This document shows, one piece after another, positions 4,498 to 53,830 of a stretch of DNA of 64,000 nucleotides. The stretch's first letter is position 1. Each line of letters starts with the position of its first letter. The stretch is from the NCBI RefSeq assembly GCF_030684315.1, contig NC_081398.1, positions 6,614,385 through 6,678,384 on the forward strand, given 5' to 3'. The notes beneath the pieces are model-generated. The model was given only the letters and a program-made list of their open reading frames with translations. It did not search any database and was not told the origin of the DNA. Source of the DNA: Stegostoma tigrinum (lineage: Eukaryota). The position numbers and the translations under genes were made by a program.

Positions 4498-4540
4498 ATG
4501 GACTCTGATCTCCATCTCATCCTTCTGTCTCTCTGTGTCG
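4498..4540 (+). CDS. Gene A exon 1, signal peptide MDSDLHLILLSLCV
   Basis: gcaATGG Kozak context, hydrophobic core, phase-1 donor G|GTGAGT; near-identical to 34040-34082. Confidence 0.85.
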
Positions 4541-9265: not shown

Positions 9266-10134
9266 CTCTGGACGAAGTTCCGTTGGGAGCCTTGAGCTAC
9301 CACTGGGGATTGCAGACTAGGCTGAGGGTTTGATACTGAGGTGTGAGGCTGCTGCTAAACTGGGAGATGAGACAGCAGGGTGGGAATAGCTGGGAGCAAG
9401 GTCGGGAAGAGTGGAAAATGGAAGAGCATTGATGGCCCAGATCAGGTCACATGGAGCTGCGGGTTCCCAAAGTGAAAGACTGAAGCAGGGAGCGGGCCCA
9501 GGTCTCCTCGCTATTATATTGTAGCTGGTCCCGGAGATATATGAATGCAGTGGCCTGGTATGGGATCTGTGACGGCGATGTGTGAGGGGAAGGTGCGACA
9601 GTATGTTCCAAAGTGGGTGTAGTTAGGAAGCCTGAGATAATGGGAACTGCAGATGCTGGAGAATCCAAGATAACAAAGTGTGAATTTGGATGAACACAGC
9701 AGGCCAAGCAGCATCTCAGGAGCACACAAGCTGTCGTTTCGTGCCCAGACCCGGCTTCTCCCAATGTCACCTCCTCCCCTGTCAATACCCCCATCGTGAA
9801 CGGATCGATCGGAAAGCTGGCTTCCAAGGGAATGATAATGTCACAGAGAGTACCTGTCGTGAACCAGGAACAGAATCAGAGACCGTACAGCGTGGAAACA
9901 CAACCATTACCTCTGCTGCTTTCGGCTGAAAGGAACATGCCAGCAGCGATTAGACCCTGCAATCTAATTGAGGGATTCACAGTGCTTTATATACAGAATA
10001 ACAGATCACTGGGAGTGAGTTACATTAAGCTGTTTGGGAAACAGAGTCTCCCTATCCCTGGGAGCTGGTTTTTCAGCTGGGAGAGATTTATTCGGGATTC
10101 CTAAATGACTGTTTGCTGTTTTGCTCTCCCACAG

Positions 10135-10503
10135 CGATGATAAAGGGAAAGGGATTCACAGTGAACCAACCGGATCGATTGGAGGCTGTGGAAGGGGGAT
10201 CGATCGAGATCCCGTGCACATTCACTTACCCAGACAGTTACAGACCCCCACGGATCAACATCTTCTGGAGAAGGTCGGAGTATCACGGGGAATTTATCTT
10301 CAATTTGTCACGGGGATACACTCACCCTAAATACTGAGGGCGAATTGACTTCCTGGGATCACCGGACACGGAGAGGACAGGAACCATCCGGATGAAGAAG
10401 CTGGGATTGCGGGATACAAACCGTTATTTCTGTCGGGTGGCTATAACAGGAAATAAGAGTGAGGCCTGGCAAAGCATCCCAGGGACCCGCCTTACTGTCC
10501 GAG
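10135..10503 (+). CDS. Gene A exon 2, V-set Ig domain (PILR/Siglec-like) with premature TGA at 10335
   Basis: Acceptor ctctcccacAG, donor GTAAGT; AMIKGKGFTVNQPDRLEAVEGGSIEIPCTF...WRRSEYHGEF...HPKY*GRI...YFCRVAITGNKSEAWQSIPGTRLTVR; frame continues intact after the stop. Confidence 0.9.
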
Positions 10504-10624: not shown

Positions 10625-13020
10625 CCTGCAGAGACATTAACACCCCCTCCCCCTCACACCCCAGGGTCAGAGACACTAAGACCCCCTCCCCCTCACTCCC
10701 CAGGGTCAGAGACACTAACCCCCCCCCCTCCGTCTCACTCCCCAGGGTCTGAGACTCCACCACCCCTCTCCACCTCACTCCCCAGGGCCAGAACCACTAA
10801 CAACCCTTTCCCCCTCACTCCCCAGGGTCAGAAACACTAACACACCCTCCCCCTCACTCCCCAGGGTGAGAGATACTAACACTGCCCAACCCCTCACTCC
10901 CCAGGGTCACATCACTAACACTCCCCTCCTCCTCACTCCCCAGGGTCAGAGACACTAACAACCCCCATCCCCTCACTCCCCAGGGTCTGAGACTCCAACA
11001 ACCCCCTCCACCTCACTCCCCAGGGTCAGATACACTAACTCCCCTCACCCCCTCACTCCCCAGGGCCAGAAACACTAACACCCCCCATTTCCTAACTCCC
11101 CAGTTTCAGAGAAACCCCCCCTCTCCCCCTCACTCCCCAGGGTGAGAGACACTAACAAGCCCTCCCTCTCACTCCCCAGGGTCAGAGACACTAAGAACCC
11201 CTCCCCCTCACTCCCCAGGGTCAGAGACACTAACTCCCCTCACCCCCTCACTCCCCAGGGCCAGAAACACTAACACCCCCCATTTCCTAACTCCCCAGTT
11301 TCAGAGAAACCCCCCCCCTCCCCCTCACTCCCCAGGGTGAGAGACACTAACAATCCCTCCCTCTCACTCCCCAGGGTCAGAGACACTAAGAATCCCTCCC
11401 CCTCACTCCCCAGGGTCAGAGACACTAACTCCCCTCACCCCCTCACTCCCCAGGGCCAGAAACACTAACACCCCCCATTTCCTAACTCCCCAGTTTCAGA
11501 GAAACCCTCCCCTCCCCCTCACTCCCCAGGGTGAGAGACACTAACAAGCCCTCCCTCTCACTCCCCAGGATCAGAGACACTAAGAACCCCTCCCCCTCAC
11601 TCCCCAGGGTCAGAGACACTAACTCCCCCCATCCCCTCACACCCCAGGGTCATGGACACTAACAGCCCCTCCCCCCGACTCCTCAGGGTCAGAGACACTA
11701 ACACACCCTCCTCCTCACTCCTGAAGGTCAGAGACACAAACACTCCCCACCCCCTCACTCCCAGGGTCAGAGACACTAACACACCCCATCCCCATCACTC
11801 CCCAGGGTCAGAGACACTAATACACCCTCCCCCTCACTCCCCAGGGTCAGAGACACTAACATCCCCTCCCCCTCACTCCCCAGGGTCAGAGACACTAACA
11901 TCACCTCCCCCTCACTCCCCAGGGTCAGAGACACTAACACACCCTCCCCCTCACTCCCCAGGGTGAAAGACACTAAGAACCCCTCCCCCTCACTCCCCAG
12001 GGTCAAAGACACTAACACCCCCTCCCCCTCACTCCCCAGGGTCAGAGACACTAACACCCCCTCCCCCTCACTCCCCAGGGTCATAGACACTAACACACCC
12101 CTCACCCTCACTCCCCAAGGTCATAGGGACTAACACCACCCACCCCCTCACTCCCCAGGGTCAGAGGCACTAACAACCCTCACCCCCTCACTCCCCAGGG
12201 TCAGAGACACTAACACCCCCTCCCCCTCACTCCCCAGGGTCAGAGACACTAACACCCCCTCCCCCTCACTCCCCAGGGTCAGAGACACTAACACACCCCA
12301 CCCCCTCACTCCCCAGTGTCAGAGACACTAACACCCCCTCCCCCTCACTCCCCAGGGTCAAAGACACTAACACACCCCTCACCCTCATTCCACAGGGTCA
12401 AAGACACTAACACCCCCTCCCCCTCACTCCCCAGGGTCATAGACACTAACACACCCCTCACCCTCATTCCACAGGGTCAAAGACACTAACACCCCCTCAC
12501 CCTCACTCCCCAGGGTCATAGAGACTAACACCCCCTCCCCCTCCCTCCCCAGGGTCAGAGACACTAACACACCCCACCCCCTCATTCACTGGGTCAGAGA
12601 CATTTAAACCCCCACCCCCTCACTCCCCAGTGTCAGAGACACCAACACCCCCCACCACCACCCCTACACACCCTAGGGTCACAAAGTGACACCCCTGAAC
12701 ACACCCCAGAGTCACAAACTGACAGCCCCCTCACTCCCCAGGGTCACAAAAAGATACCCCCATTCTACACAGGGTCAGAGACACTAACACCCCCATCCCC
12801 CCCAGGTTCAGAAACAATAGCAACCCCCACACTCCCCACACTCCCCAGGATCACAAACTGACATCCCCTCCCCTCACTCCCAGTGGTCAAACACCCTGAC
12901 ACACTCCCCACACTCCCCAGGGTCAGAGACACTAAACCCCCAACTCACTCCCTAAGGCCGTAGACACTGATACCCCTCACTCCCCAGGGCCAACGTCTCT
13001 GGCCATCCCGTCTCCCCAGG
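10625..13020 (+). repeat. C-rich ~38-39-bp minisatellite (CCCCTCACTCCCCAGGGTCAGAGACACTAACACCCCCT)n, gene A intron 2
   Basis: Visible tandem array, degenerating after ~12650. Confidence 0.95.
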
Positions 13021-13123
13021 GTCTGCTCTCTCAGTGTATTTCCTCTGGTTTCTCACCCCAGCCTCAGCTCTTTCTCCCCCTTCTGGTCCCACTTCATTGG
13101 GCTGGACTCCTGTATTTGAACAG

Positions 13124-13312
13124 CGCAGAGACCAACGACTGCGACAGCGTCGGTTCCCTCCTCAGTGAGTGCATCCTCCGAGCACAGTGCAGATGGTGAG
13201 GACCCACTGGCTCAGGGCCTCGTCCTCATCATCAGGGCGGTCATCGCTTTCACAATCCTGGCAACTCTTTGGCTGGTTGGAATTTATCTAATGAAGAGGG
13301 AGGAAGTTGCAG
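13124..13312 (+). CDS. Gene A exon 3, Ser/Thr stalk plus TM with charged Arg (AQRPTTATASVPSSVSASSEHSADGEDPLAQGLVLIIRAVIAFTILATLWLVGIYLMKREEVA)
   Basis: Acceptor tttgaacAG, donor GTAAGC, 189 nt, phase 1-1, open frame; Arg codon AGG at 13234-13236; starts AQRPTT like the gene B stalk exon. Absent from the ORF track. Confidence 0.85.
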
Positions 13313-13539
13313 GTAAGCTGTGAGCTCAGAACATGTCACTGTTTGCCCTTACATAGACAAGTGCAATGTTTTTATTAGAAACCACACTGGGTCAATCCAG
13401 TTTTCACACCAAAGTATAAGATGGTGGAGCACCAGACCTGATAATAATCTTAAGCCATGCATGGACAAAGGAGCTGCATCCCATCGAGCATTCACTCAAC
13501 CAATTGTGGCTTCAGGGAGCGCTCACAAGCTGCAATCTG

Positions 13540-14520
13540 TGTGTTTCAGGGGCAAACTGCCCACTCGTATATAGGATGGTGGTTGTCACTGTCAGAGTTC
13601 AGTCATCTCAGCTCTGTGGGGATTTCCTCAAGGTACTGTCCTCAGGCCATCAATCTTCCATTCCTTCCTCAATCCCCTTCCCTCTATCATAAGGTCAGAG
13701 GTGGGGAAGTTCGCTGATGTTTACACAATGTTCAGCACCATTTGTGACTCCTCATACACTGAAGCAGCCCATGTTCACATGCAACAAGATCCGATCAATT
13801 TCCAGACTTGGGTTGACAAGTGGCATCTAACATCATGCCACACAAATGCCAAGGAATGACCATCTCCAATAATAGACAATCCACCACTGCCCCTTAACAT
13901 TCAATGGTGTTACCATCACTGAATCCCACCAACCCCCCCACCCCCCCCCCCACCCCACTATGGTGGTTACCCTTGGTCAGAATCTCAACTGGATTCACCA
14001 CATAAGCACAGCGGCTACAAGAGCAGGCCAGAAGCTGGGAACACCGCAGTGATTAATTCACCTCTTGATTCCCCTCAAAACCTCTCTATCATCGGCAAGA
14101 AATAAGTCAGGAGTGTGATGGATTACTCCCCACTTGCCTGGATAGGTTCAGCCTGAACAACATTCAAGAGGCTCGACACCATCCATGACAAAGCAGCCCC
14201 CACATCCGCAAACATCCACTCCCTCCACCAATGAGACTCAGTCGCACTGCAGCACCTCCCAAAGGCTGCCTTGACAGCACCTTCCACGACCTCTTGAAGG
14301 CCAGGGGCAGCAGATACATGGGAACAGCGTCACCTGCAAGTGCCCTTCCGAGCCATTCCCCATCCTGACTTGGAAAAATATCGGCCGTTCCTTCGGTATT
14401 GCTGGGTCAAAGTCCTGGAACTCCCTCCACACAGGATTGTAGCAATCCTAGAAGACAGCTAATCCCAATCTTCTCAAGGTGCAAATAGGGATAGGCAATA
14501 AATGCTGGAGCAAGCCAATG
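13540..14520 (+). mobile_element. CR1/L2-clade LINE 3' fragment (decayed RT C-terminus)
   Basis: Homologous to 47400-48440 and 19420-20350. Confidence 0.75.
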
Positions 14521-14702
14521 ACACACATGTCCCAGGAGTGTAAAGAAACTTCGGGTAACAAATGCCGATTGGTCAGCTTTGGCCCCCTTCCATGCGTCAA
14601 CATTATAAGGATTGATCCATGGACAGTTGGGATGCCTGGCTGTTATCTTTTGTTCTTGCAACGTGGGATTTTCTCGGCTTTACTCTTTGTTGTCGATTTC
14701 AG

Positions 14703-14725
14703 AATCGTCTGATGGAAACATGTGA
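14703..14725 (+). CDS. Gene A probable last coding exon, short tail (E)SSDGNM*
   Basis: Long polypyrimidine tract ending gatttcAG; phase-1 reading stops at TGA 14723-14725; AATAAA near 14957, 15459 and 15586. Unspliced read-through of exon 3 would instead end GKL* at 13323; either tail is short and Tyr-free. Confidence 0.6.
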
Positions 14726-16302: not shown

Positions 16303-16719
16303 TTTCTAGGACGAGCCTTTATACCCACGCTATACCAAGGCGGTATCTGATGGCAGAATGGTAGGCTAGACTAGGTATCAATGGTCTCAAAACCCCTCTC
16401 TGAAGGGTTGGGGTATTTTTTTCATAAAAGTGACAAATCGCGGTCTCTACACTCAGGGAAGGTCTTGATGTTGACGGGTGCAGGTTGTGGTGGGATTTGA
16501 ACCGAGGTTCTGACCCTGGGGGTCTCTGGAGGGTGGGCCCAGCTTTATTTTTCCCAGGGGTGTCTTTTAGGGGAGGGGGAAATGCAAACGGGGTGCATCT
16601 GGTGGGCAGCAACAGAGAAAACCCTCCTTCAGGCTGGCAGAATCTAGGCGTCTCGCTTACCCTTAGGCATCGCCGGTCTGTGGGGCAAGGGGAAAGGGAT
16701 GGGATAGGGGGTTAAATCT

Positions 16720-16859
16720 TTTAACACTCCAGCTCACCCACACGGCTGCGTACAGGAGGTCCCCATCCCCTCTCAGGGCCTTGCCCCCCCAGTCTTCGGG
16801 ACTTCTCCTCCTCCTCCGGCCTGCAGAGAGGTGGAGGCAATTACTTCTGGGTGGGTGAG
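16720..16859 (-). pseudogene. Gene B decayed ITIM exon
   Basis: LTHPEVIASTSLQAGGGG aligns with FVHPEGIVYASLQAGRGG of gene C; an extra G in a G-run shifts LLYAAV out of frame. Confidence 0.8.
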
Positions 16860-19419
16860 CTGGCAGGGGTTGGGAGGGTAGAAAGGGGGTGGGAAGGGGT
16901 AGGTGAGTGATCCCGTTGGGAATTTCCCCCAAACAATCTCAAGAAGGGGTCCGGAGTTGGGAAGGAAGAAGGCAGGAGAGGGGGAATGTCACCGGCTCAT
17001 TTGGCCACGTTCAGCTCCTACCCTCTTCTCTCATACCTTCTCCTCCCCTGAGAAATGGTTGGGGTGCATAAGACCAGGGAGTGTGTCCCCCTCAAATCCC
17101 TCCAACACTCACCCTTACATGCTGCCCCTCAACTGGCAGTGGGGAGGGGGGGGGAGGAATCTCCCAAAGTGACCTGGGTCATCGTCATGGTGACACGTTG
17201 CAACCCAACATTGTGCGAAACAGAAGATGCAGAAAAGAGGCCATTCGGACCTCTCAAGCATGCCCTGCCATTCAGTAGGGTCATGGCTGATTGACCATCT
17301 CCATACCCTGTTCCTGCTTTACCTCCCCCCACCCCCAGGCCCCTGGATCCCTCAGACCCTACTCATGCTCCCCCAGATTCTAACAGGGGGTAAATCCTTT
17401 GGCCTCACCTCAAACAGTCAGGTTTCCAGGCCAATGCTAAAAGGAGAATGTTCCAGAGCGTTGTGGTTGAAGTTCCACATTCCCCACACACCCCCCCACC
17501 CCCCTCCCCGCTACCCCAGCCACCAAAATGAAAACCCTATAAAGCAGCAACACTGGGCTAACCAACACCTCCCGGGGGTCCTGAAGTCATGGAAGATGTG
17601 TTGCTAATGAAGGCCTCATTCGATGTTGACAACACCATTTGGACACATGCAGGGCTGGGACTTAGGAGGACGTCTAGTCAGATGGGGTAGATGAGCTTGG
17701 CCAGTCGCCGAGGGGCCACAGCCATTGCCTGATGAGAGCAGGTGAGGTTGTCACACCTCTGTGGGACCTTGCTCACTGGAAGGCCGGTGCCCTAGGAACG
17801 CGACAAGGCAAGACTCCGAAAAGAGGATGTGACAAAGAGGCATGGGAAGACTCCACTGTTCCAGCCGCTTAGCGAAAATCACAGCTGAACTTTGACCTCA
17901 GACCCATACTGATAGGGCTTGAAGGGCTGAATGGCCTACTCCCATTCCTATTTCTCCGTTACCCCATCAGATTCCCGAAGGTACTCTGAGCAAATGAATC
18001 CCCACCCACAGGTCTTGCCATTTCCCAATTCCCTATTTCTCACACTGTCCATCTCTAGGTCCTACCTCACCAGCGGGCACTGTGGAGCACCAAGATTTGA
18101 AAGATTGAAGGCAGATGGCACACTCACATCTGAAACCCTCTTGTCCTGGCTGCCTCAGCCCTGTTACAATCTGAAGGGTTCCCATTTGCCGCCTCCATCT
18201 CTTGAACCAAACAGCCAATGACAATTGGCAAATCGGCTAGATGAAGCATCACGCCTGGGACTGGGCAAAATGCAGGGGCTGGGCAGGGTCTGTGAGAGAG
18301 CTTGCTCACTCTATTGACCCCATGGCCTGTTGCCATTTGCCCTTCCTGTGCTGTGCAGGGTTAGAGAGTGTCAGACTGGGAATAGGGTAAAGGGTGACGC
18401 ATAGAATCATGTCGTACAGAACAGACCCTTCGGCCCATCGAGTCTGGGCAGCCCAAAATACAATCCGATCTGCGTGAATCCCAATTTCCCACACAAGCCT
18501 TAAATGTGATGACATTCCGTGTGCTCATCCAAGAGCTTTATAAGGGAGGCTTCCTTTCTCACCTGCCCTCCCACAGGCAGTACATTCCAGACCCCCTCAC
18601 CACCCCCGGCTATAAAATCTGTTCCTCAAATTCCCTCTGAACGTCCTCCCTTTCACTTACAAATAATAAACCCCTCATTATTGGCCCTTCGACTAAGGGC
18701 GACGGTTCCTTTCTATCTGCCTTGTCCACATCCCTCAGGGTCTCTGTCAGGTCCCCCCTCAGCATTCCCTGCTCCAAAGAAAACAATCCGAGCTTCTCCA
18801 GCTTCTCTGCATTGCCTGAACACTCTACCCCAGGGGGACATCCTGGTGAATCTCCTCTGCACCCCCTCCAGTGCAAATCACCTCCTTGCTACAGCCTGGG
18901 GTCCAGAACACTCCAGAGCCAAGATTAGGCCAGAGGGTTAATGTGTGGCATGGAATGGCTGATGCCAATGTGGTACGCGCCTCTCTAAGTTGGCACATTG
19001 AACGCAGCTCTTGAAACTATTAACCCGAGGTGTTTCCCCCCCAGTTGGCCCTTGTCCTTTGCTGGGGAGCTGTCTAGGGCTAGACCACTGCAGGGAGAGA
19101 GAGCGCACAGAAGGTGTAAGGTTACACCTGAATGCACTGCGACACAGCCATCCTGAACAGAAATAGGCCATTCAGCCCCTCAACCCTTCAATGATGTCAC
19201 AGTGGAGCCGTACCTGCCGTGACTTCCTGTTTGCACCTACTACCCAATAATATTTGTACTAATATACCATTAACACACAGTGAATTGTTATCAAGGGGGA
19301 GCAATGGAGAAGGGGAGGGAGGGACAGAGAGGGGAAGGAAAGAGCAACAGAGGGGGTGGGAGGGCCAACACTGAGGGTTTGGAGACGACAAAGAGTGGAG
19401 GGAGGGCAACTGCGAGGGG

Positions 19420-20575
19420 TTGGCGTTCCCATGTATCTGCTGCCTTTGCCCTTCTAGATGGTAGAAGTCATGGGTTTGGAAGGTGCTGCCTGAGGATATT
19501 TGGAGAATTGCTGGTGAAATGATAGTACAATCTGCTGCGACTGAGCATCGGTGGGAGAGGGAGTGGATGCTTGTGGATGTGGGGCCAATCAAGCCGGATG
19601 CTTTGTCCTGGATGGCGTCGAGCTTCTTGAGTGTTGCTGGAGCTGTCCCCATCCAGGGCAAGTGGGGAGTATTCCCTCACACTCCTGACTTGTGCCTTGT
19701 AGATGGTGGGACAAGCTTTGAGGAGTCAGGAGGTGAGTTACTTTGTGCAGGATTTCCAACCTCTGATCTGATCTTGTAGCCATTGTGTTTCAATGGCTAG
19801 TCCAGTTCAATTTCTGGTCCGTGGTAACCCTCTGGATGCCAATATTTGGGGGAATTCAGTGATGGGAATGCCAGTGAATGTCAATAGCCATTGGTTGGAC
19901 TGTCCCTTATCAGAGAACGTATTTGTGTCTGGCATTTGCGTGGCATGAATGTCACTTGCCACTTGCCAGCCCAAGCTTGGATATTGTCCAGATCTTGTTG
20001 CATGTGAACACGGACTGCTTCAGTGTCTGAGGAATCATGGATGGTGCTGAACATTGTGCAGTCATCAGTGAACATCCCCACTTCTGACCTTATGATGGAG
20101 GGAATGGCATTGATGAAGTAGCTGAAGATGGTTGGGCCTAGAACACTACCCTGAGGAACTCCAGCAGAGATATCCTGAGCTGATGATGATTGACCTCCAA
20201 CAACCACGACCATCTTCCTGTGTGTCAGGTAGGCCTCCAACCACCAGAAAGTTTGCCCCTTGATCCTCATTGATTCCAGTTTTGCAAGACCTCCTTGATG
20301 CCACACTCGCTCGAATGCAGCCTCAATATCCTGGGCTGTTACTCTCACCCCACCTCTGGAATACAGCTCTTTTGTCCATGTCAGGGGTCAGGAGCTGAGT
20401 GGCCCTGGTGGAACCCAAACTGGGCATCACTGAGCAGGTTATTTCTGAGCAGGTCCTGCTTGATAGCACTGTTACCGACACCTTCCATCGCTTTACTGAT
20501 GATCAAGAGGAGACTAATGGGAAAGTAATTGGCCGGGTTGGATTTCTCCTGGTTTTTATGCACAGGACATGGCTG
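19420..20575 (-). mobile_element. CR1/L2-clade LINE RT fragment
   Basis: ORF 19881-20348 carries GVPQGSVLGP and FTDD RT motifs; inverted counterpart of 47080-48250. Confidence 0.85.
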
Positions 20576-24962: not shown

Positions 24963-25012
24963 GAAGAAGTAAGCGGACTGTGGCGAGGGCCGGAGGGGCA
25001 AGGGTTCCTTAC

Positions 25013-25198
25013 CTCGCTGCTGATCTTTCTTCTTGCAGACATAGAGAGCCGCTGCTATTGCCACGGAAACGAGGAGCACAAACACCGTGGCAACCGCGAT
25101 CCCTAGAATCCAGGCCAACTTTCTTCGATTGGTAGTGAGTGTGGTGGTGGAAATGGTGCTGGTCTTCACCGTGGGATTGGAAGTAGTCGGTCGCTGTG
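25013..25198 (-). pseudogene. Gene B stalk/TM exon (AQRPTTSNPTVKTSTISTTTLTTNRRKLAWILGIAVATVFVLLVSVAIAAALYVCKKKDQQR), open and with intact splice sites
   Basis: Acceptor (tc)n-tgtttcAG, donor GTAAGG, 186 nt; homologous to 42813-42998. Confidence 0.85.
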
Positions 25199-28620: not shown

Positions 28621-28715
28621 GGAGTGGGCAGTCATCAGGAGCTGAATATTAACCCCAAGACAATGCACGGGGCATCATGCAGAAAGTAATACGGAGGCCC
28701 TAAATGGGATTTTTC

Positions 28716-29058
28716 CTTGGAGAGTGAGCAGCATCCCTGTTTCCTGTTGTAGCCACCCGACAGAAATAACGGTTTGTATCCCGCAATCCCAGCTGCTTTA
28801 TCCGGACGGTTCCTGTCCCTTCCGTGTCCGGCGATCCCAGGAATTCAATTCGTTCTTGGTATTTAGGGTGAGTGTATCCCCGTGACAAATTGAAGATAAA
28901 TTCCCCGTGATACTCCCATCTTCTCCAGAAGATGCTGATCCGTGCGGTTCTGTAACTGTCTGGGTAAGTGACTGTACACGGGATCTCGATCGATCCCCCT
29001 TCCACAGCCTCCACTCGATCCAGTTGGTTCACTGTGAAATCCTCTCCCTTTATCATCG
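28716..29058 (-). pseudogene. Gene B V-set exon with 26-bp frameshifting deletion and destroyed splice donor
   Basis: 343 nt vs 369 nt; taagagtgaggcctggcaaagcatcc is missing; ccaag|GAaaaa vs ccgag|GTaaaa in C; reading runs to a stop at 28700-28702. Confidence 0.9.
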
Positions 29059-34039: not shown

Positions 34040-34082
34040 ATGGGCTCTAATCTCCATCTCATCCTTCTGTCTCTCTGTGTCG
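34040..34082 (+). CDS. PILRA: Gene C exon 1, signal peptide MGSNLHLILLSLCV
   Basis: gcaATGG; donor G|GTGAGT; phase 1. Confidence 0.88.
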
Positions 34083-37000
34083 GTGAGTGAGTTCAATCTT
34101 ATTCCAATGTGTCACCAACTTGGCTTCTGATTCAGACTGAGTCCTTCCCTTCACCAGCCACTCCACGGCTCAAAGCTGTTGCTTACCCTGATGGTGTGGG
34201 CAAGTTACCAGAAGCTGCTTTCAATTCAGCTCCTGGTTAAGAAATCTCCAAGATAATCAAGTTCCAAAACAATGGTTTGGATGTTATCGCATGTAACCAG
34301 AAAAATAAGGCGCCTCATGGAAGCAAGTTAACTCTCATAATCCTGGGTTGGCAACTAATGAGCATCTGGCCCCGATTCCAAACTGCAGCGTCCGTCCCTA
34401 AAAGTGTCCAGAGTTGGTGGACTGATTTATTGTGGTCCTATGTCCCGAGATACAGTGGAAAGTGTTGTTTTGTGTGCTATACAGGCAGATTGTGCCATAA
34501 AGAGTGTGTCAGGGTGGCAGAACAAAGTGCTACAGACACAGAGAAGGTGCAGTGAGAGAGAGAGATCAGAATTAACATTCCAGAGGAATGCTCAAGAGTC
34601 TGAGAACAGCAGGGAAGAAGCTGTTCTTGAATATGTTATATTCAAACTGTTGTACATTCTGCCCAGAAAAGGGAGGGTGGAAGAGAGTATGAGGGTTGAG
34701 AGGGGTGCTTGATTGTACGGATATTAGAAATAGGAGCGGGAGCGGATCATCTGGCCTCATTGAGCCTGCCCCACTATTCAATAAGATCATGGCTGTTCTT
34801 TTCACAGATTCAGCTCCACTAACCCACCCGCTCACCATAACCCTTAATTCTTTTACTGTTCAAAAATCTATCTATCTCTGCCTTAAAAACATTCAGCGAG
34901 GTATCGTCATCTGATTCACTGGGCAGGGAATTCCACAGATTCATAACACTTTGGGTGAAGAAGTTCCTCCTGACCTCAGTCCGAAACCTGCTCCTCAGAA
35001 CAATCTCCAGGAATATCCTGGTGAAAGGATAGGGGTCCAAAGGAGTTTTGAAAGGAATTATCCCAGTGATCAGAGGAATTTTACGGGGAATCTTGAGGAA
35101 AGAGAGATTGCGAGAGGTGGAGAGGTGTGGGGGGAGAATCTTGTAACTGCAGTCAGCAAACCCCCCCCCCCCCATGGAGATTTCAGAGGGCTGTAGTGAC
35201 TGGAAGGGGTGATAGTGATAGGGAGGGATGTAGGGGCTGCAGGCAGTTACAGAGATTAGGAAGAGTGTGGGAGCTGGAACAGCTAACAGAGATAAGGAGC
35301 AGTATGGGGGCTGGAAGAGGTTACATAGGTAGGGAGGGGTGTCGCGGCTGGAGGAGGTTACAGAGATAAGGAGAGGTGTAGGGTTTGGAGGAGGTTGCAG
35401 AGATAGAGAGGTACAGGGGTCGGAAGAGGTGACAGAGATTGGGATGGGTGTAGGTGCGGGAGGAGATTACAGTGATCGGGCGGGGTGTAGGGTCAGGAGG
35501 AGGTTCCTGTGTGAGTTTTGAGTTACCACTGAGCATTTCAGACAAGGCTGAGGGATTAAAACTGAGGTGTGAGGGTGTTGCTAAACCAGGAGATGAGGCA
35601 GCAGGGAGGGAATAGCAGGGAGCAGGGTCAGGAATGTGTTCAGATTAAGGGGCAGTGGGTCCTTTTGCAATCTATTGAGGAGTGTAGAAAATGGAAGAGC
35701 GTCGATGGCTGAGATCAGGGCATGTGGAGCTGTGGATTCCCAAAGTGAAAGACTGAAACTGAGAGCTCCTCGTTATTACCTTGTGGCTGGTCTGGGAGAT
35801 ATATAAAGGCAGCGGTCTGGTATTGGATCTCAGATGGTGATGGGTGAGGGAAAGCGGATTTCACAATGGGGGTGGAGGGCCTGGAAGACAGTTGAGGCTT
35901 GTCCCCATGTAACCCCCTCCTCCGTCAGTACTCCCATCCCAAAAATATTGATTGGAAAGTTGGGTTCCAAGGGAAAGATTGTGTCACAGAGAGTACCCGT
36001 CCTGAACCAGAGGGGAACTCATCCAGTACCTCAGGGGCTTTAGGCTCAAAGGAACATACTAGCAGCAGCTACACTCTGGAATCTAATCAAGGAGTTTTGG
36101 GTGGTTTCTCCACAGAATAACATATCCAAGAGTGAGTTACAAATGTGTTGGTTCATTCATGGGATGAAGGCATTTCTGGCCAAGCAGCATTTATTACTGA
36201 TCCCTAATTGCCCAAGAGGGCAGTTAAGAGTCAACCACATTACTGTGGGTCTGAAGTCACATGTAGGCCAGCCCAGGTAAGGATGGCAGTTTCCTTCCCT
36301 TAAAGGGCATTAGTGAATCAGAAGGGTTTTCCCCCAGACAATTGCCGATGGACTCACGGTCATCATTAGGCATTAAATTCCAGACATTTTTATTTAATTC
36401 AAATCACACCATGAGGACTCAAACCAGGGACCCCAGAACATTGACTGGGTCTCTGGGTTAGAAGTCCAGCGATAACATCACGAGGCTATTCCTCCCCCCC
36501 ACCCCCCCGGGGCCAGATGTTCTGGGGTTAGCTTATATACAGAATAACAGATCACTGGGAGTGAGTTACATTAAGCTGTTTGGGAAACAGAGTCTCCCTA
36601 TCCCTGGGAGCTGGTTTTTCAGCTGGGAGAGATTTATTCGGGATTCCTAAATGACTGTTTGCTGTTTTGCTCTCCCACAGCGATGATAAAGGGAAAGGGA
36701 TTCACAGTGAACCAACCGGATCGATTGGAGGCTGTGGAAGGGGGATCGATCGAGATCCCGTGTACATTCACTTACCCAGACAGTTACAGACCCCCACGGA
36801 TCAACATCTTCTGGAGAAGATCGGAGTTTCACGGGGAATTTATCTTCAATTTGTCACGGGGATACACTCACCCTATATACCGAGGGCGAATTGACTTCCT
36901 GGGATCACCGGACACGGGGAGGACAGGAACCATCCGGATAAAGAAGCTGGGATTGCGGGATACAAACCGTTATTTCTGTCGGGTGGCTATAACAGGAAAT

Positions 37001-40000
37001 AAGAGTGAGGCCTGGCAAAGCATCCCAGGGACCCGCCTCACTGTCCGAGGTAAAACCCTATTTAGCGTTTCAGTATAACTTTCCGTACGGTGCCCATTTC
37101 ATTGCTTCGTTTAGTATTCATCTGTCCCTACACCCTCCCTATCCCTGTCACCCCCTCCAGCCCTTACACCCCCTCCCTATCCCTGTCACCCCCTCCAGCC
37201 CCTACACCCCCTCCCTATCCCTGTCACCCCCTCCAGCCCTTATACCCTCTCCCTATCCCTGTCACCCCCTCCAGCCCCTACACCCTCACCCTATCCCTGT
37301 CACCTCCTCCTGCGCCTACACCCCGTCCCTATCCCTGTCATCCCCTCCAGCCCCTACACCCCCTCCCTATCCCTGTCAGCCCCTACACCCCCTCCCTATC
37401 CCTGTCACCCCCTCCAGCCCCTAAACCCCTCCCTATCCCTGTCACCCCCTCCAGCCCCTACACCCCCTCCCTATCTCTGTAACCCCTCTCCACCCCTACC
37501 TATCTCTGTAACCCCCTCCAGCCCCTACACCCCCTCCCTATCTCTGCCACCCCCTCCAGACCCTACACCCCCTCCCTATCCCTGTCAACCCCTCCAGCCC
37601 CTACACCCCCTCCCTATCCCTGTCACCCCCTCCCTATCCCTGTCACCCCCTCCATATCCCTGTCACCCCCTCCATATCCCTGTCAGCCCCTCCTTATCCC
37701 TGTCACCCCCTCCAGCCCCTACACCCCCTCCCTATCCCTGTCACCCCCCCTGCCCCTACAACCCCTCCCTATCTCTGTAACCCCTCTCCACCCCTACCTA
37801 TCTCTGTAACCCCCTCCAACCCCTACACCCCCTCCCTATCTCTGCCACCCCTTCCAGACCCTACACCCCCTCCCTATCCCTGTCAACCCCTCCAGCCCCT
37901 ACACCCTCCCTATCCCTGTCACTTCCTCCAGCCCCTACACCCTCCCTATCCCTGTCACCCCCTCCAGCCCCTACACCCTCCCTATCCCTGTCACCTCCTC
38001 CATCCCCTACATCCCCTACATCCCCTCCATATCCCTGTCACCCCCTCCATATCCCTGTCACCCCCTCCATATCCCTGTCACCCCCTCCCTATCCCTGTCA
38101 CCCCCTCCAGCCCCAGACCCCCTCCGTATCCCTGTCATGCCCTCCAACCCCTACACACCCTCCCTATCCCTGTCACCTCCTACACCACCTCCCAATCCCT
38201 GTCATCCCCTACACCCACTCCCTATCCCTGTCACCCCCTCCAGCCCCTACACCCCGTCTCTATCCCTGCCACCTGCTCCAGCACCTACACCCCTCCCTAT
38301 ACCTGTCACCCCCTCCAGCCCCTACACCCCCTCCCTATGCCTGTCACCCCCTCCAGCCCCTGCACCTCTCCCTAACTCTGTCATCTCCTCCAGCCCCTTA
38401 CAGAAAATGGACACTGTCAAGTTCTAAATGAATGCAGAAAGGTTCAAAGTCAGGGCAAAATATGAGGTCAGACACCCCGACCAGTCAATGCCACACCTCC
38501 TCCCGTCCAGAAATAACATTAGTCCCCAAGCCCGTGAACGTTCCCCCCCCCATCACCTCTCCCTTGACCAGTACCTTGGTGGCACATCATTGAGAAGGCT
38601 GCAACCGGGGAGCGATGTAACGGCTCCATTAAAGCAAGAAACTCTTCATGGTTTCATTCTGCCGTTTCACCAAACCACAGAGGAAGTCTCGTGTCCAATG
38701 TGGCTGCTGCATGACTGAGAAAGCAGAGAGTTACACAAATGGTTCCTGGAGTGAGGAGCTAAGGGCAGGATGGTGGCCTAGTGGTATTACCGCTTAGAAA
38801 CCCAGGTAATGTTCCTGGGACCTGGGTTCGACTTGAATTTGAATTCAAATAAGAAAAAACTGTGGAATTAAGCATCTACTGAATGCCATTGACCACTGTT
38901 AATTTGTTGGAAAAACCCATCTGGCTCACTCATGTGCTTCAGGATGTGAACTGCCATCCTTACCTGGTCTTTCATGCCTGTCCAGCCACTCTTGACTGTC
39001 CTGTGGGTAATTAGGAACGGGCAATAAATTCTGGGCCGAGTCAGAGATACCCCTCGTCCTGTGAACAATTTTGTTTTTAAAAACTCAGTGATCAGGAGAG
39101 ATCATATGATTGTCCTCTTCAGAGGGCTGAAGGCTGGGGTTAGATCTGATACAGATTTTCAAGATTGTGAGCAGGAGAAGCTGGTCCAGTCCGTAAAAGG
39201 AACAAGAACAAGAGGGCAGAGGTGTGGATTTAAAGGAGATGTGCCAACAAAGCTAGGGTGGTTCTGCAGCCTAGCTGGGGTGGCCATACCAAATTACCCA
39301 CGGTGCCCAGGGATGCGTAGAAGAGATGGGTAGGCCATGGGAAATGCAAGGTGTCAGGGATAAGGGGGTTGAGACTGGGTGGGATGCTGTTGAGGGAGTT
39401 GATGGGCCAAATGGTCTGCTTCCACACTGTAGGGATTCTATGATTGGATCCTGTGTGGGGAAAGCAACTTTGCCACCTGGCAAATGGCTAGGGCCTGGAA
39501 TGCACTGCCTAGAAAAGTATTGGGAGCAGGTTCAACTGGGCGAATCAAGAGGGGCTTTTGATGGTTATTGGGATAGACGTAAGGTGCAGGGATTTGGGGT
39601 TAAAGACAGGAGATCGGCACTGGACAACAACTAAGGCTGGCACGATGGGCTGAATGGCCTCCGTAACAATTCTGTTCCTAACTCTGTGTGTGTCTCTTGG
39701 CCTTCCCCTCCTTGTTCTGACCCAAATCTATCAAACTGAGCATTGCCATTTCCAATTAACCCTCACCAGCGACCGCACCCCGCCCCCCCCGACCTCACAC
39801 CCCCAGACCCGCTCCCTGTTGTTTTGGGGGAAATGTGATGGGGAAAGCAGTTCACTAGTCTGAAGAGGCATTTTCCTGATTTCACTGCTGAATTGCCCCA
39901 GGTGCAACTTTGAGGTCACTTGCCCCTTGTTAAGACGTGTGCCCCCTCCCAATCACTGCAAAAAGCATCTTTCACATTTCAGCCAGTCTGTCAAAATGCA

Positions 40001-42755: not shown

Positions 42756-42800
<45 letters not shown>

Positions 42801-45800
42801 TCTCTGTTTCAGCACGGCAACCGACTACTTCCAATCCCACGGTGAAAACCAGCACCATTTCCACAACCACACTCACTACCAATCGAAGAAAGTTGGCCTG
42901 GATTCTAGGGATTGCGGTTGCCACGGTGATTGTGCTCCTCATTTCCGTGGCGATAGCAGTGACTTTCTATGTCCGCAAGAAGAAAGATCAGCAGCGAGGT
43001 AAGGAACCCTTGCCCCTCCGGCCCTCGCCACAGGCCACTTACTCCTTCCTTCGTGAGAGCCAATGACGTCCTGATTGCCGGTGAGGAAGTGGCATTTTCC
43101 TCGCGTCTCCGCAGTCCCTCCCAGTCCCTTTGGCTTGGAAGCATAGACTCATCCGACACAGAAACAGATCCTTCGGCCCATCCAGCCCATGCCGACCGTA
43201 ATCCCAAACTAAACTCGTCCCACCTGCCTGCTCTTGGCCCATATTCTTCCAAACCTTTCCTATTCATGTGGCTATCTAAATGTCTTTTGCACATTGTTAC
43301 TGCAATCCACCCCTTCCTCGGGAAATTCATTCTGAGTAAACTTTACTCCCTGTGTAAAGAAGTTGCCCCTCAGGTCAATTTTAAATCTTTCACCTCTCAC
43401 CTTAAAAATGTGCCCCCTAGTCTTGAAATGCCCCACTCAAGGGAAAAGACAGCTCCCATTCACCTTGTCTACATCCCTCACTATTGTATAAACCTCTATC
43501 AGGTTATCTGTCAAACTCCTAACCTCCAGTGAAAAAAATCCCAGCCTCTTCTTATAACTCAAACCCCGCATTCCCAGCAGCATTCTGGTAAATCTCTTCT
43601 GTACCCACTCCAGCTTAATTAAATCCTTCCTATAACAGGGAGACCAGAACTGGACACAATACTGCAGAAGATGCCTCACCAATGTCCTGTGCAATCTCAA
43701 AATAATGTCCCAACTGTTATACTCAAACATCTGATAAAGAAGGAAAGCATGTTGAATGCCTTCTTAATCACCCTGTCTACATGTCATGCCAACTTCAAGG
43801 AAATATTAACTTAAATCTGTCTGTTCTACAACACAACCCAACATCCTACTTTTAATTGTAAAAGTCCTGCTCTTGTTTGTGTTGCAAACATGTAATATCT
43901 CGCAGTTAATGAAATTAAATTATTTAGTTGTCAATTCGCAGCTGTACAGGATATTAGTCAAACCATACTGTGTGCAATTCTGGTCTCCTGCTGTGGGAAG
44001 GATGTTGTGAAACTTGAAAGATTTCAGAAAATATTTACCAGGATGTTGCTGGGGTTGGAGTGTTTGAGCTGCAGGGAGAGGCTGAAAATGGGCTGAGACT
44101 ATTCTCCCTGGAGCATCAGGGTCTAAGGGGGTGATCTTATAAACGGTTAATCATGGGCATGGATAGGGTATAATAGACAGGGTCTTTTCCCTGGAGTGGA
44201 GGGGTCTAAAACTAGAGGGAATAAGTTTAAGGTGAGAGGGGAAAGATCTAAAAGGAGTCTTTTCATGCAGAAGGTAATCTATGTATGGACTGAGCTGCCA
44301 GAGGAAGTGGTGGAGGCTGGTACAACTTTTAAAAGGCATCTGGATGGGGATATGAATAGGAAGGGCTTAGAGGGATATGGGCCAAATGCTGGCAAATGGG
44401 ACTAGATTAATTGAGATATCTGGTCGGCATGGACAAGTTGGACTGAAGGGCCTGTTTCTGTGCTGTACATTTCTATGACTATGACTATGACTAAATTAAA
44501 CTCATTGGTGATCCAGCCGGGTTTGGGTCCTAGAGGCTCTGGCTTTGCCGTGATTGGTCGATTGCACTGGATTCCCCCATCCCACCCCAGCCCTAGATGT
44601 TGTCAGTCATCCATTACCCCAAGCCCATGCCCGTGTAGCAATCGGAGAGCCACTCCTGGCACCAGTAATTGGAGGATCCTCTACCTCCATGAGTTAAAGG
44701 ATGTGAACTCTCACCCTCATTGCACACTCCCTACTCAATGGATGGCAGGGCACCAGGAAGCTCAGAGAAACAGAGGGATCTTGGGGAGCAGATCCCTAAG
44801 GGTGGCACGACAAGTTTGATTTGATACATCATTGTCACATGTACATGGGCGTACAAATAGGAAGGGTTTAGAAAGATACAGTCCAAATGTTGAAAATGGG
44901 ACTAGATTAATTTAGAATATCTCATTGACATGAACAGGGTGGACCGAAGGGTTTGTTTCCTTGCTGTACATTTCTATGACTCTTCCTCTGTTTGTGTCTG
45001 TGAGCCAATGTCCTATGACTTTGACTCAGGGGTGGGGCTTTAACACACTGCATCAAGAATAGGGAAGAAAAATTCTTTTGTTCCAGCTCCCTTTCTGCAT
45101 CTGTTCACTTCATCCCAGTGTGCCTGATTCTCCACTCTCTCCCTCTGGAAAGGGGACGCAGCTATTCGACTTGGGCAGCTGGCACAGAAAGGGGTATTAG
45201 GGGCCTGCGGGGAAATTGGCTGCGCACCACTAAAGATATTGCCCAACAAAACTGCTCTTCACTTTCTCTCTAAAATGTGAGCTTCTGGCACACTCCCAAC
45301 ATCCAACCATTGCCCAAGAGGTCACCCAATCTATTTGAAGAGTTTTGCTCAGTTTCAGACTAACCACAGCTTCCGGCCTATCACTGACGTCTTCTGGGGT
45401 CAGGTTATCAGAACCGGAGAAGGCCATTCAGCCCCACTAGAGCATACCAACTGCCCCTGCTTTCTCCACAACAAAAACACATCAATCCCACCCTTAAAAA
45501 CCCTGACTGACCGTGGTTTTGTCTGGAGGATTTGGCAGAGTGTCGTAGGAAGCAGGTTTTCCCTTCTCAGGAAATCTTGTTCCTTGACATCTCCCTCTTG
45601 CTCTGTCCCGAGTCACCTTTATCTCTTTCTGAGGAGAATTCGGGGCTTAGGAGATGCCCATGATGTGGAGTGTGAAATCCTTGGTGACTTTCCAAAGGGA
45701 ATGGGATAGATATTGGTGTGTGGGGGCTATGATGGGGGAAAACAGGGAAGGATCAGTAGGCCCATAGCCTTGAATGTTCTGACATTTCTGTAACACACCT

Positions 45801-48789: not shown

Positions 48790-48822
<33 letters not shown>

Positions 48823-51800: not shown

Positions 51801-53830
51801 CAGCCAACCCACCCTAACCCGCACATCCCAGGGCACTATGTGACAATTTAGCACGCCAACCCACCCTAACCCGCACATCCCTGGGCACTATGGGACAATT
51901 TAGCACGGCCAATCCACCCTAACCCGCACATCCCTGGGCACTACGGGACAATTTAGCACGGCCAACCCACCCTAACCTGCACATCCCTGGGCACTACGGG
52001 ACAATTTAGCACGGCCAATCCACCCTAACCTGCACATCCCTGGGCACTATGGGACAATTTAGCACGGCCAATCCACCCTAACCCGCACATCCCTGGGCAC
52101 TATGGGACAATTTAGCACGGCCAATCCACCCTAACCCGCACATCCCTGGGCACTATGGGACAATTTAGCACGGCCAATCCACCCTAACCCGCACATCCCT
52201 GGGCACAATGGACAATTTAGCACCCTAACCCATGCAGACACGGAGAGAACATGCAGACTCCACACAGACAGCCCAAAGGTGGTATCGAACCTGAGCCCCT
52301 GGCACCATGAGGCAGCAGTGCCAATGACTGAGCCACCCTGCTGCCCCCATCCCACTGGCTGCACCAATACCTCCCACGCGGGCGAATGTTTCTTGGTGCG
52401 GCAACCAAGAAATGGCTGGAGATCTCAAGCAGCAACAAGGAGTTGCATTGATGTAGCCCCTTGGGGAAACCCAAGGAAATGTCACAGGCTGCTTCACCAC
52501 AGTGTTGTGGAGCAGAGCAGAGTCGCTGAGCACCCGGGAGGGGAGTCCAGGCCACCAAGGGGTGCAATGCTTAGAATTGGACAGTGGAGTGCTCAAGAAG
52601 AGGGTTGGGGTTGGTACTTGGTCGTGAAGGTTGGGATGGAGATTGGGGGGAGTGGGCCAATACCAGGGTGTGAGTGACAAGCATTGCCTGAGCATGCCAC
52701 CTGCTTTCTATCTTCCAGGCCCTGGCACCCAGTACCGAGCTGACACGGAGTCCACTGGTGAGGTAAGGCCTAGAGGCGGATGTTCCGAGAAATGGGGAAT
52801 TAGGAAATGCCAACTGAATTAGGGCCCTCGGGAATCTGATGGGATAATGCCGGAATTAGGAGCAGGAGTGGGCCATTCGGCCCCTCGAGCCTGCTGTGCG
52901 GTCAATACAAGAATGAGGTGAAAGGTCAGATGCGATTTCCGCGAATTGGCGGGAATGGTGGAGTCTTCCCATGCCCCTATCTAACATGTTCCCTTTTCAG
53001 AGTAATTTTTTTTATGCTTAGCCTCACCAAGCTCCGAAGACAACCCACACCCCACCAACCCCCTCACATTGGCCTTCCAATGAGCAGCAGGAGATTGATA
53101 ATTGATCTCCTGGGTGGAGCTGCACACAGCAAGATCCCACGGAAATGTGGAACCCCCCCACCGGCTCTGACCAGGAGAGGGCCCCTCGGCGACCAGCCTA
53201 GCTCACGTCCCAACCCCTCCCACCCCAGGCGAGATCTCCGTCTGACTCCCACCCCCGCACGTCTCCGAATGGTGTTGCCAACATGGAATGAGGCCTACAT
53301 TTTCGTAGCGCCTTCCGCAACTCCAGGACAACTCAGTCAGGCACGGTCCGCCCATTGTCGCCGCTTTAAGTGTTATTTTGTTCAGTGCCTGAGGGTAGAG
53401 GAGAGTGTGGAGGACACCCTCCCTGGTCTCCTTCAGAGCACCAGGATTGTCCACACCCCTCTCCATCCTCCCCAGCCCTCCATTTTCAAGGGGAGGGGAG
53501 GTGAATGGGGAGAAAAGGATGGGGGCACAGAGTTGGCCAACGTGAACCGATGACTTGCCCCGCCCTGCCACCATTGCCCCCCTCCCCTCTGCAGACCGCT
53601 ACCAGGGTTAGCTCAGTGGAAACTCCCAACAGGATCACTCCCTCCTTTCTAACCTGCCGCCCTCCCACCTCTTTGCTTCTCCCTGCCAGTTCGTCCACCC
53701 AGAAGGGATTGTCTACGCTTCTCTACAGGCCGGAAGAGGAGGACAAGGCCCGACGACCAGGAGCAAGGCCCCACGAGGGGAGGGGGACATTCTGTACGCG
53801 GCCGTACGGTTTCAATCGCAGTCTTCATAG
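34040..53830 (+). CDS. PILRA: Gene C: intact inhibitory PILR-alpha-like receptor, 7 exons, 287 aa
   Basis: join(34040-34082,36681-37049,42813-42998,48567-48594,50180-50232,52719-52762,53690-53830) = 864 nt, all GT-AG, no internal stop. V-domain motifs GGSIEIP, WRRSEFHG, YFCRV, WQSIPGTRL and tail GIVYASL match recalled human PILRA (GGSVEIP, WRRGHFH, YFCRV, WQSIEGTKL, GIVYASL). The symbol denotes similarity; orthology is not established. Confidence 0.85.
35190..35505 (+). repeat. Short degenerate G-rich 37-38-bp minisatellite, gene C intron 1
   Basis: Same position and unit as the 3-kb array in gene A but only ~8 units. Confidence 0.8.
36145..36500. mobile_element. SINE-like interspersed repeat
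   Basis: ccctaattgccc...gggcagttaagagtcaaccac...ggatggcagtttccttccctaaaggacattagtgaa recurs at ~27300 and ~40050. Confidence 0.6.
36681..37049 (+). CDS. PILRA: Gene C exon 2, intact V-set Ig domain
   Basis: Cys at 36761 and 36977 (72 codons apart), Trp in IFWRR, DTNRYFC; Arg codon at 36980; N-glycan sequons NLS and NKS; donor GTAAAA. Confidence 0.95.
37125..38400 (-). repeat. 37-38-bp minisatellite, C-rich on +, gene C intron 2
   Basis: (CCCTACACCCCCTCCCTATCCCTGTCACCCCCTCCAGC)n, the reverse complement of the intron 1 unit. Confidence 0.95.
42813..42998 (+). CDS. PILRA: Gene C exon 3, Thr-rich stalk plus uncharged TM (ARQPTTSNPTVKTSTISTTTLTTNRRKLAWILGIAVATVIVLLISVAIAVTFYVRKKKDQQR)
   Basis: (CT)n tract then tttcAG; donor GTAAGG; 186 nt, phase 1-1; basic stop-transfer RKKK. 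Confidence 0.92.
43130..44490. mobile_element. Two CR1 LINE 3' fragments in opposite orientation (minus ~43130-43900, plus ~43940-44490)
   Basis: LVRHLLQYCVQFWSP and VWTELPEEVVEAGT CR1 ORF2 motifs. Confidence 0.75.
47080..48440 (+). mobile_element. CR1/L2-clade LINE RT fragment
   Basis: GVPHGNLLGPTISSCFINDLP, LFVDD and WVDKWQVTF in ORF 47415-48602; frameshifted downstream. Confidence 0.9.
48567..48594 (+). CDS. PILRA: Gene C exon 4, 28-nt cytoplasmic mini-exon GNFRKGSVH(N)
   Basis: tgtcctgtttctgcAG ... GTAAGT; supplies exactly the phase 1-to-2 shift needed between exons 3 and 5. Confidence 0.7.
50180..50232 (+). CDS. PILRA: Gene C exon 5, 53 nt, GLALDSSPAKDEGLSQE
   Basis: (ct)n-ccctgcAG acceptor, AG|GTATGG donor; 3 of 4 differences from the gene B copy are synonymous in this frame. 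Confidence 0.8.
51345..52340 (-). repeat. ~53-bp tandem array (~16 units) amplified from the interior of a tRNA-derived SINE
   Basis: (CACATCCCTGGGCACTACGGGACAATTTAGCACGGCCAATCCACCCTAACCCG)n runs into a SINE head at 52230-52340; single-unit relatives at ~21660 and ~58390. Confidence 0.9.
52719..52762 (+). CDS. PILRA: Gene C exon 6, 44 nt, GPGTQYRADTESTGE
   Basis: ctttctatcttccAG acceptor; GAG|GTAAGG donor (alternative donor after 52757); open in phase 1. Confidence 0.8.
53690..53830 (+). CDS. PILRA: Gene C exon 7 with two ITIMs: FVHPEGIVYASLQAGRGGQGPTTRSKAPRGEGDILYAAVRFQSQSS*
   Basis: CTAAC branch point ~53649, pyrimidine tract, ccAG; IVYASL at 53708-53725, ILYAAV at 53789-53806, TAG at 53828-53830. 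Confidence 0.9.
   Translation, partial: FVHPEGIVYASLQAGRGGQGPTTRSKAPRGEGDILYAAVRFQSQSS

What the first reader, a model, noticed from the sequence alone, without database searches (positions are those of the whole stretch)
13124..13312. Activating member carries an outer-leaflet TM arginine (FcR-gamma-type) instead of the mid-membrane lysine used with DAP12
Seen: GLVLIIRAVIAFTILATLWLVGIYLMKR has a single Arg near the N-terminal end of the helix and no central Lys; the ORF track misses this exon. Established: N-proximal Arg typifies FcR-gamma/CD3-zeta-coupled receptors (Fc-alpha-RI, GPVI, LILRA, NKp46), whereas mammalian PILR-beta signals via a TM Lys and DAP12. Inference: different adaptor usage, suggesting an ancestral state or an independent origin of the activating arm.
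Basis: partly seen in the sequence, partly recalled or inferred. Interest (0 to 1): 0.7.

Follow-up and report, generated by a model that had tools for sequence, protein, structure and literature searches.

The report
Shark PILR activating arm uses arginine
This exon encodes the membrane anchor of a shark immune receptor whose arginine, shared by most sharks and a ray, likely recruits a different signalling partner than the mammalian counterpart does, although this particular gene copy carries a premature stop and is likely dead.

Summary
13124-13312 is the transmembrane exon of the short-tailed member (gene A) of a three-gene PILR-like cluster; gene C matches zebra shark records at 98-99%. 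The Arg (13234-13236) lies at 0.26 of the hydrophobic span, level with the Asp of this genome's FcR-gamma-like and zeta-like chains (0.27) and above the Lys of 16 tetrapod PILR-beta-type helices (0.36-0.54). The same column holds Arg in 13 of 15 elasmobranch rows and Lys in 2 (bamboo and epaulette sharks), so Arg is old within elasmobranchs. The helix shows no similarity to the mammalian PILR-beta helix, which resembles mammalian PILR-alpha; separate origins fit better than an ancestral state. FcR-gamma/zeta coupling is inferred, not shown (about 0.55): zebrafish Nitr9 has Arg at helix position 5 yet is reported to signal via Dap12. Gene A itself is likely null here: a TGA in the V exon, also in contigs of two samples, and the one spliced contig found uses an acceptor 62 nt upstream that puts the helix out of frame. 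Adaptor switches inside paired-receptor families have precedent (macaque KIR). New variant of a known kind; interest 0.45.

The parts
4498..4540 (+). Gene A leader (signal peptide) exon, ATG to phase-1 donor
   Evidence: spliced contig ends match this exon or its near-identical gene C copy (table 7)
10135..10503 (+). Gene A V-set Ig exon, PILR-like; 8 differences in 369 nt from gene C
10335..10337 (+). Premature TGA in gene A V exon (CGA in gene C)
   Evidence: contigs of runs X1 and X2 match the window at this place (table 8)
13062..13123 (+). 62-nt 5' extension used by the one spliced contig; shifts the frame, stop at 13166-13168, helix not encoded
13124..13312 (+). Gene A stalk + transmembrane exon (the finding), in-frame acceptor
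13234..13236 (+). Codon of the intramembrane Arg
14703..14725 (+). Gene A last coding exon, short tail and stop; AATAAA sites follow at about 14956, 15458, 15586, 15887
16738..16862 (-). Gene B remnant of the ITIM exon, frame broken, first tyrosine motif lost
25010..25198 (-). Gene B TM exon, uncharged, near copy of gene C's
28727..29058 (-). Gene B V exon, 3' end truncated and splice donor lost; no leader ATG found: likely pseudogene
34040..34082 (+). Gene C leader exon
36681..37049 (+). Gene C V exon, intact
42813..42998 (+). Gene C TM exon, uncharged (inhibitory member)
53690..53830 (+). Gene C last coding exon with two ITIM-type motifs (three small tail exons lie near 48570, 50180 and 52720)

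Best explanation
The exon is the transmembrane module of the activating-type member of a shark PILR-like receptor pair; its conserved outer-third Arg likely binds the Asp pair of an FcR-gamma or CD3-zeta dimer, but in this genome the gene carries a premature stop and is likely null. Shown: exon structure, Arg position, conservation across elasmobranchs, short tail without Tyr, an ITIM-bearing neighbour with a 98% identical V exon, and two gamma/zeta-type chains with the Asp at the same relative depth. Inferred: the V domain would bind sialylated O-glycans as mammalian PILRs do; intact orthologs would signal through the adaptor's ITAM; repeated gene conversion would keep the activating and inhibitory V domains alike within each species while the activating helix is inherited separately; this helix likely arose apart from the mammalian PILR-beta helix.
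For: Best solved-structure matches of the V domain are PILR-beta and PILR-alpha (E 4.6e-19, 5.8e-19). Basic residue in one column in 15 of 15 elasmobranch rows with this helix, Arg 13, Lys 2. Relative depth 0.20-0.26, against 0.27 for the Asp of L013 and L012 and 0.36-0.54 for 16 tetrapod Lys helices. L013's best solved match is the FcR gamma chain (E 3e-11). Passages of PMC13107469 say that CD89 binds gamma-gamma through an Arg near the top of the helix and that DAP12 pairs with a mid-membrane Lys. Mouse PILR-beta is supported by DAP12, not by FcR-gamma or zeta (PMC2211832 passages). Activating and inhibitory V domains are sisters in 7 of 7 species; one activating clade is rejected (AU p 0.00048). 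TM exon 56/62 identical to whale shark, V exon 84/122. Null state: TGA at 10335, matched by contigs of X1 and X2; frameshifting splice in X5; no zebra shark protein with this exon came up (1 hit of 89 candidates, whale shark).
Against: No binding evidence of any kind. Zebrafish Nitr9 has Arg at position 5 of its 23-residue helix (supplement of PMC2442602) and is cited as signalling via Dap12, so the position rule has an exception in fish; I could not read the primary paper. Lys in 2 of 15 rows, although PMC13107469 says Lys/Arg exchanges compromise TCR assembly; mouse LMIR8 has a TM Lys and is FcR-gamma-coupled (title and passages), so residue type alone does not predict the adaptor. One basking shark row has a second, central Arg and one bamboo shark row a central Glu. 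DAP12 could not be searched and DAP10 gave no match, so rival adaptors' depth was not measured. Depth values rest on a crude boundary rule. TM segments are short, so z near 0 cannot exclude a very old common origin. Contigs drop rare forms, so an in-frame transcript or an intact allele is not excluded.
Confidence: 0.55

Rival explanations
1. The Arg couples the receptor to DAP12 (or DAP10), as in mammals, despite its high position; the long side chain would reach down to the adaptor's Asp.
For: Nitr9 precedent in zebrafish. Lys at this column in 2 of 15 rows. The helix is long (24-27 residues in 14 of 15 rows), so its register in the membrane is uncertain. NKG2D uses Arg with DAP10 (PMC13107469 passage).
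Against: Depth matches the gamma/zeta Asp and is separated from all 16 tetrapod Lys helices. Macaque activating KIR with Arg at position 4 bind FcR-gamma and not DAP12 (PMC8102735 passages). No DAP10 match in the genome search (0 of 46 candidates; not proof of absence).
Confidence: 0.25
2. The residue is an interfacial basic residue that snorkels to lipid head groups; the protein is an adaptor-independent decoy or uses several adaptors loosely.
For: Arg/Lys interchange. The 19 residues after the Arg could span a bilayer on their own.
Against: The four residues before the Arg are hydrophobic and almost invariant (Leu 15/15, Ile 14/15 at three positions), the following residue is small in 14 of 15, and Trp at +12 is invariant: more constraint than a plain anchor needs. 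All best hydrophobic windows include the Arg. Inhibitory partners have no such residue.
Confidence: 0.12
3. On the state of this copy (independent of the adaptor question): gene A is a working receptor gene in at least some zebra sharks, the stop being a segregating allele and the in-frame splice a form the assembler dropped.
For: The TM exon has no lesion and is 56/62 identical to whale shark. The gene is transcribed and spliced in X5. X1 and X2 differ from the window's gene A at 10372 and 10394, so alleles or conversion tracts vary. A review legend notes that activating partners are often lost polymorphically (PMC13358205).
Against: TGA is matched in two samples of one study; the upstream acceptor has the stronger pyrimidine tract (0.80 against 0.55) and is the only joint seen.
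Confidence: 0.2

Closest known systems
Mammalian PILR-alpha / PILR-beta pair
   Same: Single V-set domain with best solved matches to PILRs; F-strand Arg and Trp-Arg-Arg motif aligned with human PILR-beta; adjacent ITIM-bearing and short-tailed genes; V domains homogenised within species.
   Different: Arg in the outer third instead of a mid-membrane Lys; activating helix unrelated to the inhibitory helix, whereas in mammals the two are alike; Cys where human PILR-beta has Phe in the B strand.
FcR-gamma/zeta-coupled RDD receptors (CD89, NKp46, NKp30, KIR2DL4)
   Same: Arg near the top of the helix, short tail without motif (PMC13107469, PMC8102735 passages).
   Different: PILR-type V domain; no polar Gln/Asn one turn above the Arg as described for CD89 (hydrophobic here); binding untested. 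I did not obtain these receptors' sequences, so no homology test was made.
Macaque activating KIR3DS
   Same: Precedent for one paired-receptor family using Arg/FcR-gamma in one lineage and Lys/DAP12 in another.
   Different: There the donor helix is known (KIR2DL4) and binding was shown; here the donor is unknown.
Zebrafish Nitr9
   Same: Fish activating Ig receptor with Arg at helix position 5.
   Different: Reported to signal via Dap12; different receptor family.

Membership tests
PILR family | Single V-set domain closest to PILRs | tested here: met
   (top three solved matches are PILR chains; pIgR follows closely at 1.9e-18 by several domains); database names of 98-99% matches
PILR family | Linked inhibitory (ITIM) and activating (basic TM, short tail) genes | tested here: met
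PILR family | Siglec-type F-strand Arg | tested here: met
   present in genes A and C and in 13 of 18 rows checked; that this Arg is the sialic-acid contact is recalled, with general support in PMC13358205
PILR family | Binding of sialylated O-glycans | not testable with these tools
   needs a binding assay
PILR family | Linkage with MEPCE, ZCWPW1, NYAP1 (human neighbourhood recalled, not from a call) | tested here: inconclusive
   Bin3, zf-CW and NYAP_N family matches lie on the same contig C58 at 9.41, 9.50 and 15.11 Mb, 2.8-8.5 Mb from the cluster; TSC22 does not; paralog identity not checked; one search found no paper with all five terms
Mammalian-type PILR-beta | Mid-membrane Lys for DAP12 | tested here: not met
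Mammalian-type PILR-beta | B-strand Cys absent | tested here: not met
   Cys present in all 16 chondrichthyan rows and in a turtle, Phe in human
FcR-gamma/zeta-coupled (RDD) activating receptors | Arg in the top half of the TM helix | tested here: met
   Lys in 2 of 15 orthologous rows
FcR-gamma/zeta-coupled (RDD) activating receptors | Adaptor with TM Asp encoded in the genome | tested here: met
FcR-gamma/zeta-coupled (RDD) activating receptors | Arg-dependent physical association and signalling | not testable with these tools
   needs co-expression
Intact protein-coding gene | Open frame from leader to tail | tested here: not met
   TGA at 10335-10337; frameshifting splice in the only spliced contig

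The most novel reading that the evidence does not exclude
The activating arm of the PILR pair was built at least three times on one ligand-binding domain: an Arg helix wired to FcR-gamma/zeta in sharks and rays, a Lys helix in caecilians and turtles, and a Lys helix derived from the inhibitory gene in mammals (with a possible fourth in skates). Bamboo and epaulette sharks then swapped Arg for Lys at the same depth, giving a natural test of whether position or residue type selects the adaptor.
Probability: 0.35. Interest if true: 0.65.

Novelty: new variant of a known kind. Interest (0 to 1): 0.45.

Why it matters
If the coupling is as inferred, PILR is an old paired-receptor family of jawed vertebrates whose activating arm changes adaptor between lineages, and FcR-gamma/zeta signalling by myeloid/NK-type receptors was in place in cartilaginous fish; a 2014 survey reported finding no FcR-gamma chain in shark genomes (PMC4016189 passage), whereas this genome has a clear one. 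The Arg and Lys orthologs allow a clean test of the Arg-top/Lys-centre rule in the oldest lineage with these adaptors, where Nitr9 already suggests exceptions. The effect is limited: both assembly modes and lineage-specific adaptor switches are known, automatic annotation already names these genes PILR, and this copy is likely null.

Tried and rejected
Complex prediction of two FcR-gamma-like TM chains with the receptor helix: no verdict (scores 0.07 and 0.06, mark 0.34, controls not folded); not used either way. No RNA holder was listed as such among 11 runs; X5 is treated as a transcript source only because one contig skips both introns at GT..AG. X6, X7 and X8 gave no cover of the TM exon; no inference drawn. 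The second laying at 98% likeness showed no contig bridging the stop in X5 (7 records not shown), so the stop's presence in transcripts is undetermined. Solved-structure search with the TM exon: 1 chance hit, E 2.9. DAP10 family search: none. ITAM family search: 2 weak matches under the cut-off, one 15 kb from L012; no DAP12 located. A Pfam scan failed on a wrong strand and was not repeated. Earlier findings near this place: none. Paper searches: PILR+shark 17 papers, 15 listed, none on shark PILR by title or abstract start; 0 papers; 1 unrelated listing. Primary papers on Nitr9-Dap12 and on the PILR structure were not held. Rejected: assembly error as the source of the stop (matched in X1 and X2 contigs, though these are one study and one may be the assembly's source); using V-domain trees to date the activating arm (V domains group by species).

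Full report
Observation. The stretch 13124-13312 is a 189-nt exon with canonical ends and phase 1 on both sides. It encodes a Ser/Thr-rich stalk, a hydrophobic run of 26 residues and the first cytosolic residues. The only charged residue in the run is Arg (codon 13234-13236), with 6 residues before and 19 after it. It is not a chance stretch: 3 of the 4 strongly hydrophobic 25-mers in all six frames of the window are receptor TM exons, and a whale shark protein carries the same exon at 56 of 62 identities.

The locus. The genome search found three close V exons, all in this window; the other 7 of 10 matches are at 25-35% identity. The V domain's best solved matches are PILR-beta and PILR-alpha. 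Gene C (+ strand) is intact, has an uncharged helix and two ITIM-type motifs, and matches two proteins named for Stegostoma tigrinum at 98-99%. Gene B (- strand) has a truncated V exon without donor, no leader ATG found and a broken ITIM exon. Gene A has a leader exon, a V exon, the Arg exon and a last exon at 14703 that gives a 13-residue tail without Tyr. Genes A and C are 97-100% identical over about 10007-10486 and fall off sharply outside, with 8 differences in the 369-nt V exon, while their TM exons do not align.

State of gene A. One of the 8 differences is TGA for CGA at 10335. Contigs of runs X1 and X2 (two samples, one study) cover 10305-10428 with only two other letters, neither at the stop; they may be mosaics of A and C, and one sample may be the assembly's source, but the stop allele is not peculiar to the assembly. 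In run X5 one contig joins the V exon to 13062 and 13312 to 14703, both at GT..AG. The 13062 acceptor adds 62 nt, shifts the frame and stops at 13166-13168 before the helix; its pyrimidine tract is the stronger one (0.80 against 0.55). Contigs drop rare forms, so the in-frame splice is not excluded. A search with the exon found no zebra shark protein (1 hit of 89 candidates; weak evidence). I put the null state at about 0.75-0.8.

Conservation. Of the 28 proteins, 13 carry this helix; the other 15 have an inhibitory-type helix, a skate-type helix or none. Adding a stingray protein (named) and the window's exon gives 15 rows: Arg in 13 (zebra, whale, white x3, basking x3, two catsharks x3, sevengill shark, stingray) and Lys in 2 (epaulette and brownbanded bamboo shark), all in one column. 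Isoforms P0158 and P0159 were left out. Rows from one species are not independent. Since Arg occurs in a ray and in several shark orders (classification recalled), Arg is the likely ancestral elasmobranch state and Lys a change in one family. Around it, Leu at -3 and Trp at +12 are invariant and +1 is small in 14 of 15 rows.

Depth and adaptors. With one simple boundary rule the basic residue sits at 0.20-0.26 of the span in the 15 rows; the Asp of two gamma/zeta-family exons of this genome sits at 0.27; the Lys of 16 tetrapod PILR-beta-type proteins, picked by eye from the 157 proteins, sits at 0.36-0.54 (the rule misplaces the end in a few rows; 7 of the 16 were named, the rest are judged mammalian by resemblance). 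L013 is FcR-gamma-like (best solved match E 3e-11); L012 is taken as CD3-zeta by inference. DAP10 gave no match and I had no DAP12 query. The established rule, read in passages of PMC13107469 and PMC8102735, is Arg near the top for gamma/zeta and central Lys for DAP12; mouse PILR-beta is stabilised by and signals through DAP12 only (PMC2211832 passages). Against a firm call: the supplement of PMC2442602 shows zebrafish Nitr9 with Arg at position 5 of 23, and that paper and PMC3463160 cite it as signalling via Dap12 (passages; primary paper not held); mouse LMIR8 has a Lys and is FcR-gamma-coupled (PMC5974347 title and passages; the Lys position was not seen). Hence about 0.55 for the whole explanation, 0.25 for DAP12/DAP10.

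Origin. V domains cannot date the activating arm: activating and inhibitory V domains are sisters in 7 of 7 species (bootstrap 90-100, 4 pairs starred), and one activating clade is rejected (AU p 0.00048; the group was named after I had seen the tree). The TM regions tell more. Against block-preserving shuffles, shark activating helices score mean z 11.8 among themselves, about 0 against shark inhibitory, mammalian activating and turtle activating helices, and 1.0-1.4 against caecilian ones; mammalian activating against mammalian inhibitory scores 7.1; turtle against caecilian activating 2.2-2.5 (2-6 sequences a group). So mammalian PILR-beta's helix looks like a derivative of (or is converted with) PILR-alpha's, and is no descendant of the shark Arg helix as far as sequence shows. 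Separate origins are favoured, but 39-residue hydrophobic segments cannot exclude a very old link between shark and caecilian exons.

Comparison and novelty. The cluster passes the sequence tests for PILR, with chromosome-level but unproven synteny, and fails those for mammalian-type PILR-beta. It looks like an RDD-type receptor; membership needs a binding test. Searches of the held library found no paper on shark or elasmobranch PILR, but most subscription papers and bioRxiv supplements are not covered, and databases already name these proteins PILR by automatic annotation (often with alpha and beta swapped relative to the helix type). Adaptor switches within a paired family are known from macaque KIR. 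Verdict: a real, conserved feature and a new variant of a known kind, seen here in a likely dead copy; interest 0.45.

Noticed in passing
window 36681-53830 (gene C): Spliced contigs of X5 and X6 join the V exon straight to the first tail exon, skipping the TM exon, as in database isoform P0002: a soluble or cytosolic-tail-bearing form of the inhibitory receptor.
   Followed up: partly
L013 = G000:C59:9569577-9569660: Clear FcR-gamma-like TM exon in a shark, although PMC4016189 (2014) reported none in the shark data then available.
   Followed up: partly
P0028, P0171 (thorny skate): An Arg-bearing helix that resembles skate inhibitory-type helices, not the shark activating helix (z about 0): possibly a separate origin of an activating form in skates.
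   Followed up: partly
P0165, P0163, P0164, P0172: Four activating-type paralogs lack the F-strand Arg (Leu, Leu, Cys, Lys), suggesting changed ligand specificity.
   Followed up: no
P0014; P0007: A second, central Arg in one basking shark paralog and a central Glu in a bamboo shark protein.
   Followed up: no
window 16600-30700 (gene B): Inverted, decayed copy of the inhibitory gene between genes A and C; several introns share repeat blocks with gene C.
   Followed up: partly
window 6284-9279, 10629-12993, 27948-28615, 37120-38400, 51344-52232, 59266-60145, 63565-63996: Long minisatellite arrays in the introns, related arrays flanking each V exon; LINE-like reverse-transcriptase fragments at about 19880-20390 and 47400-48100 (recognised by eye).
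   Followed up: no
P0011, P0013, P0022, P0037: Multi-domain proteins built of tandem PILR-like V domains in horn shark, caecilians and stingray; may be real or fused gene models.
   Followed up: no
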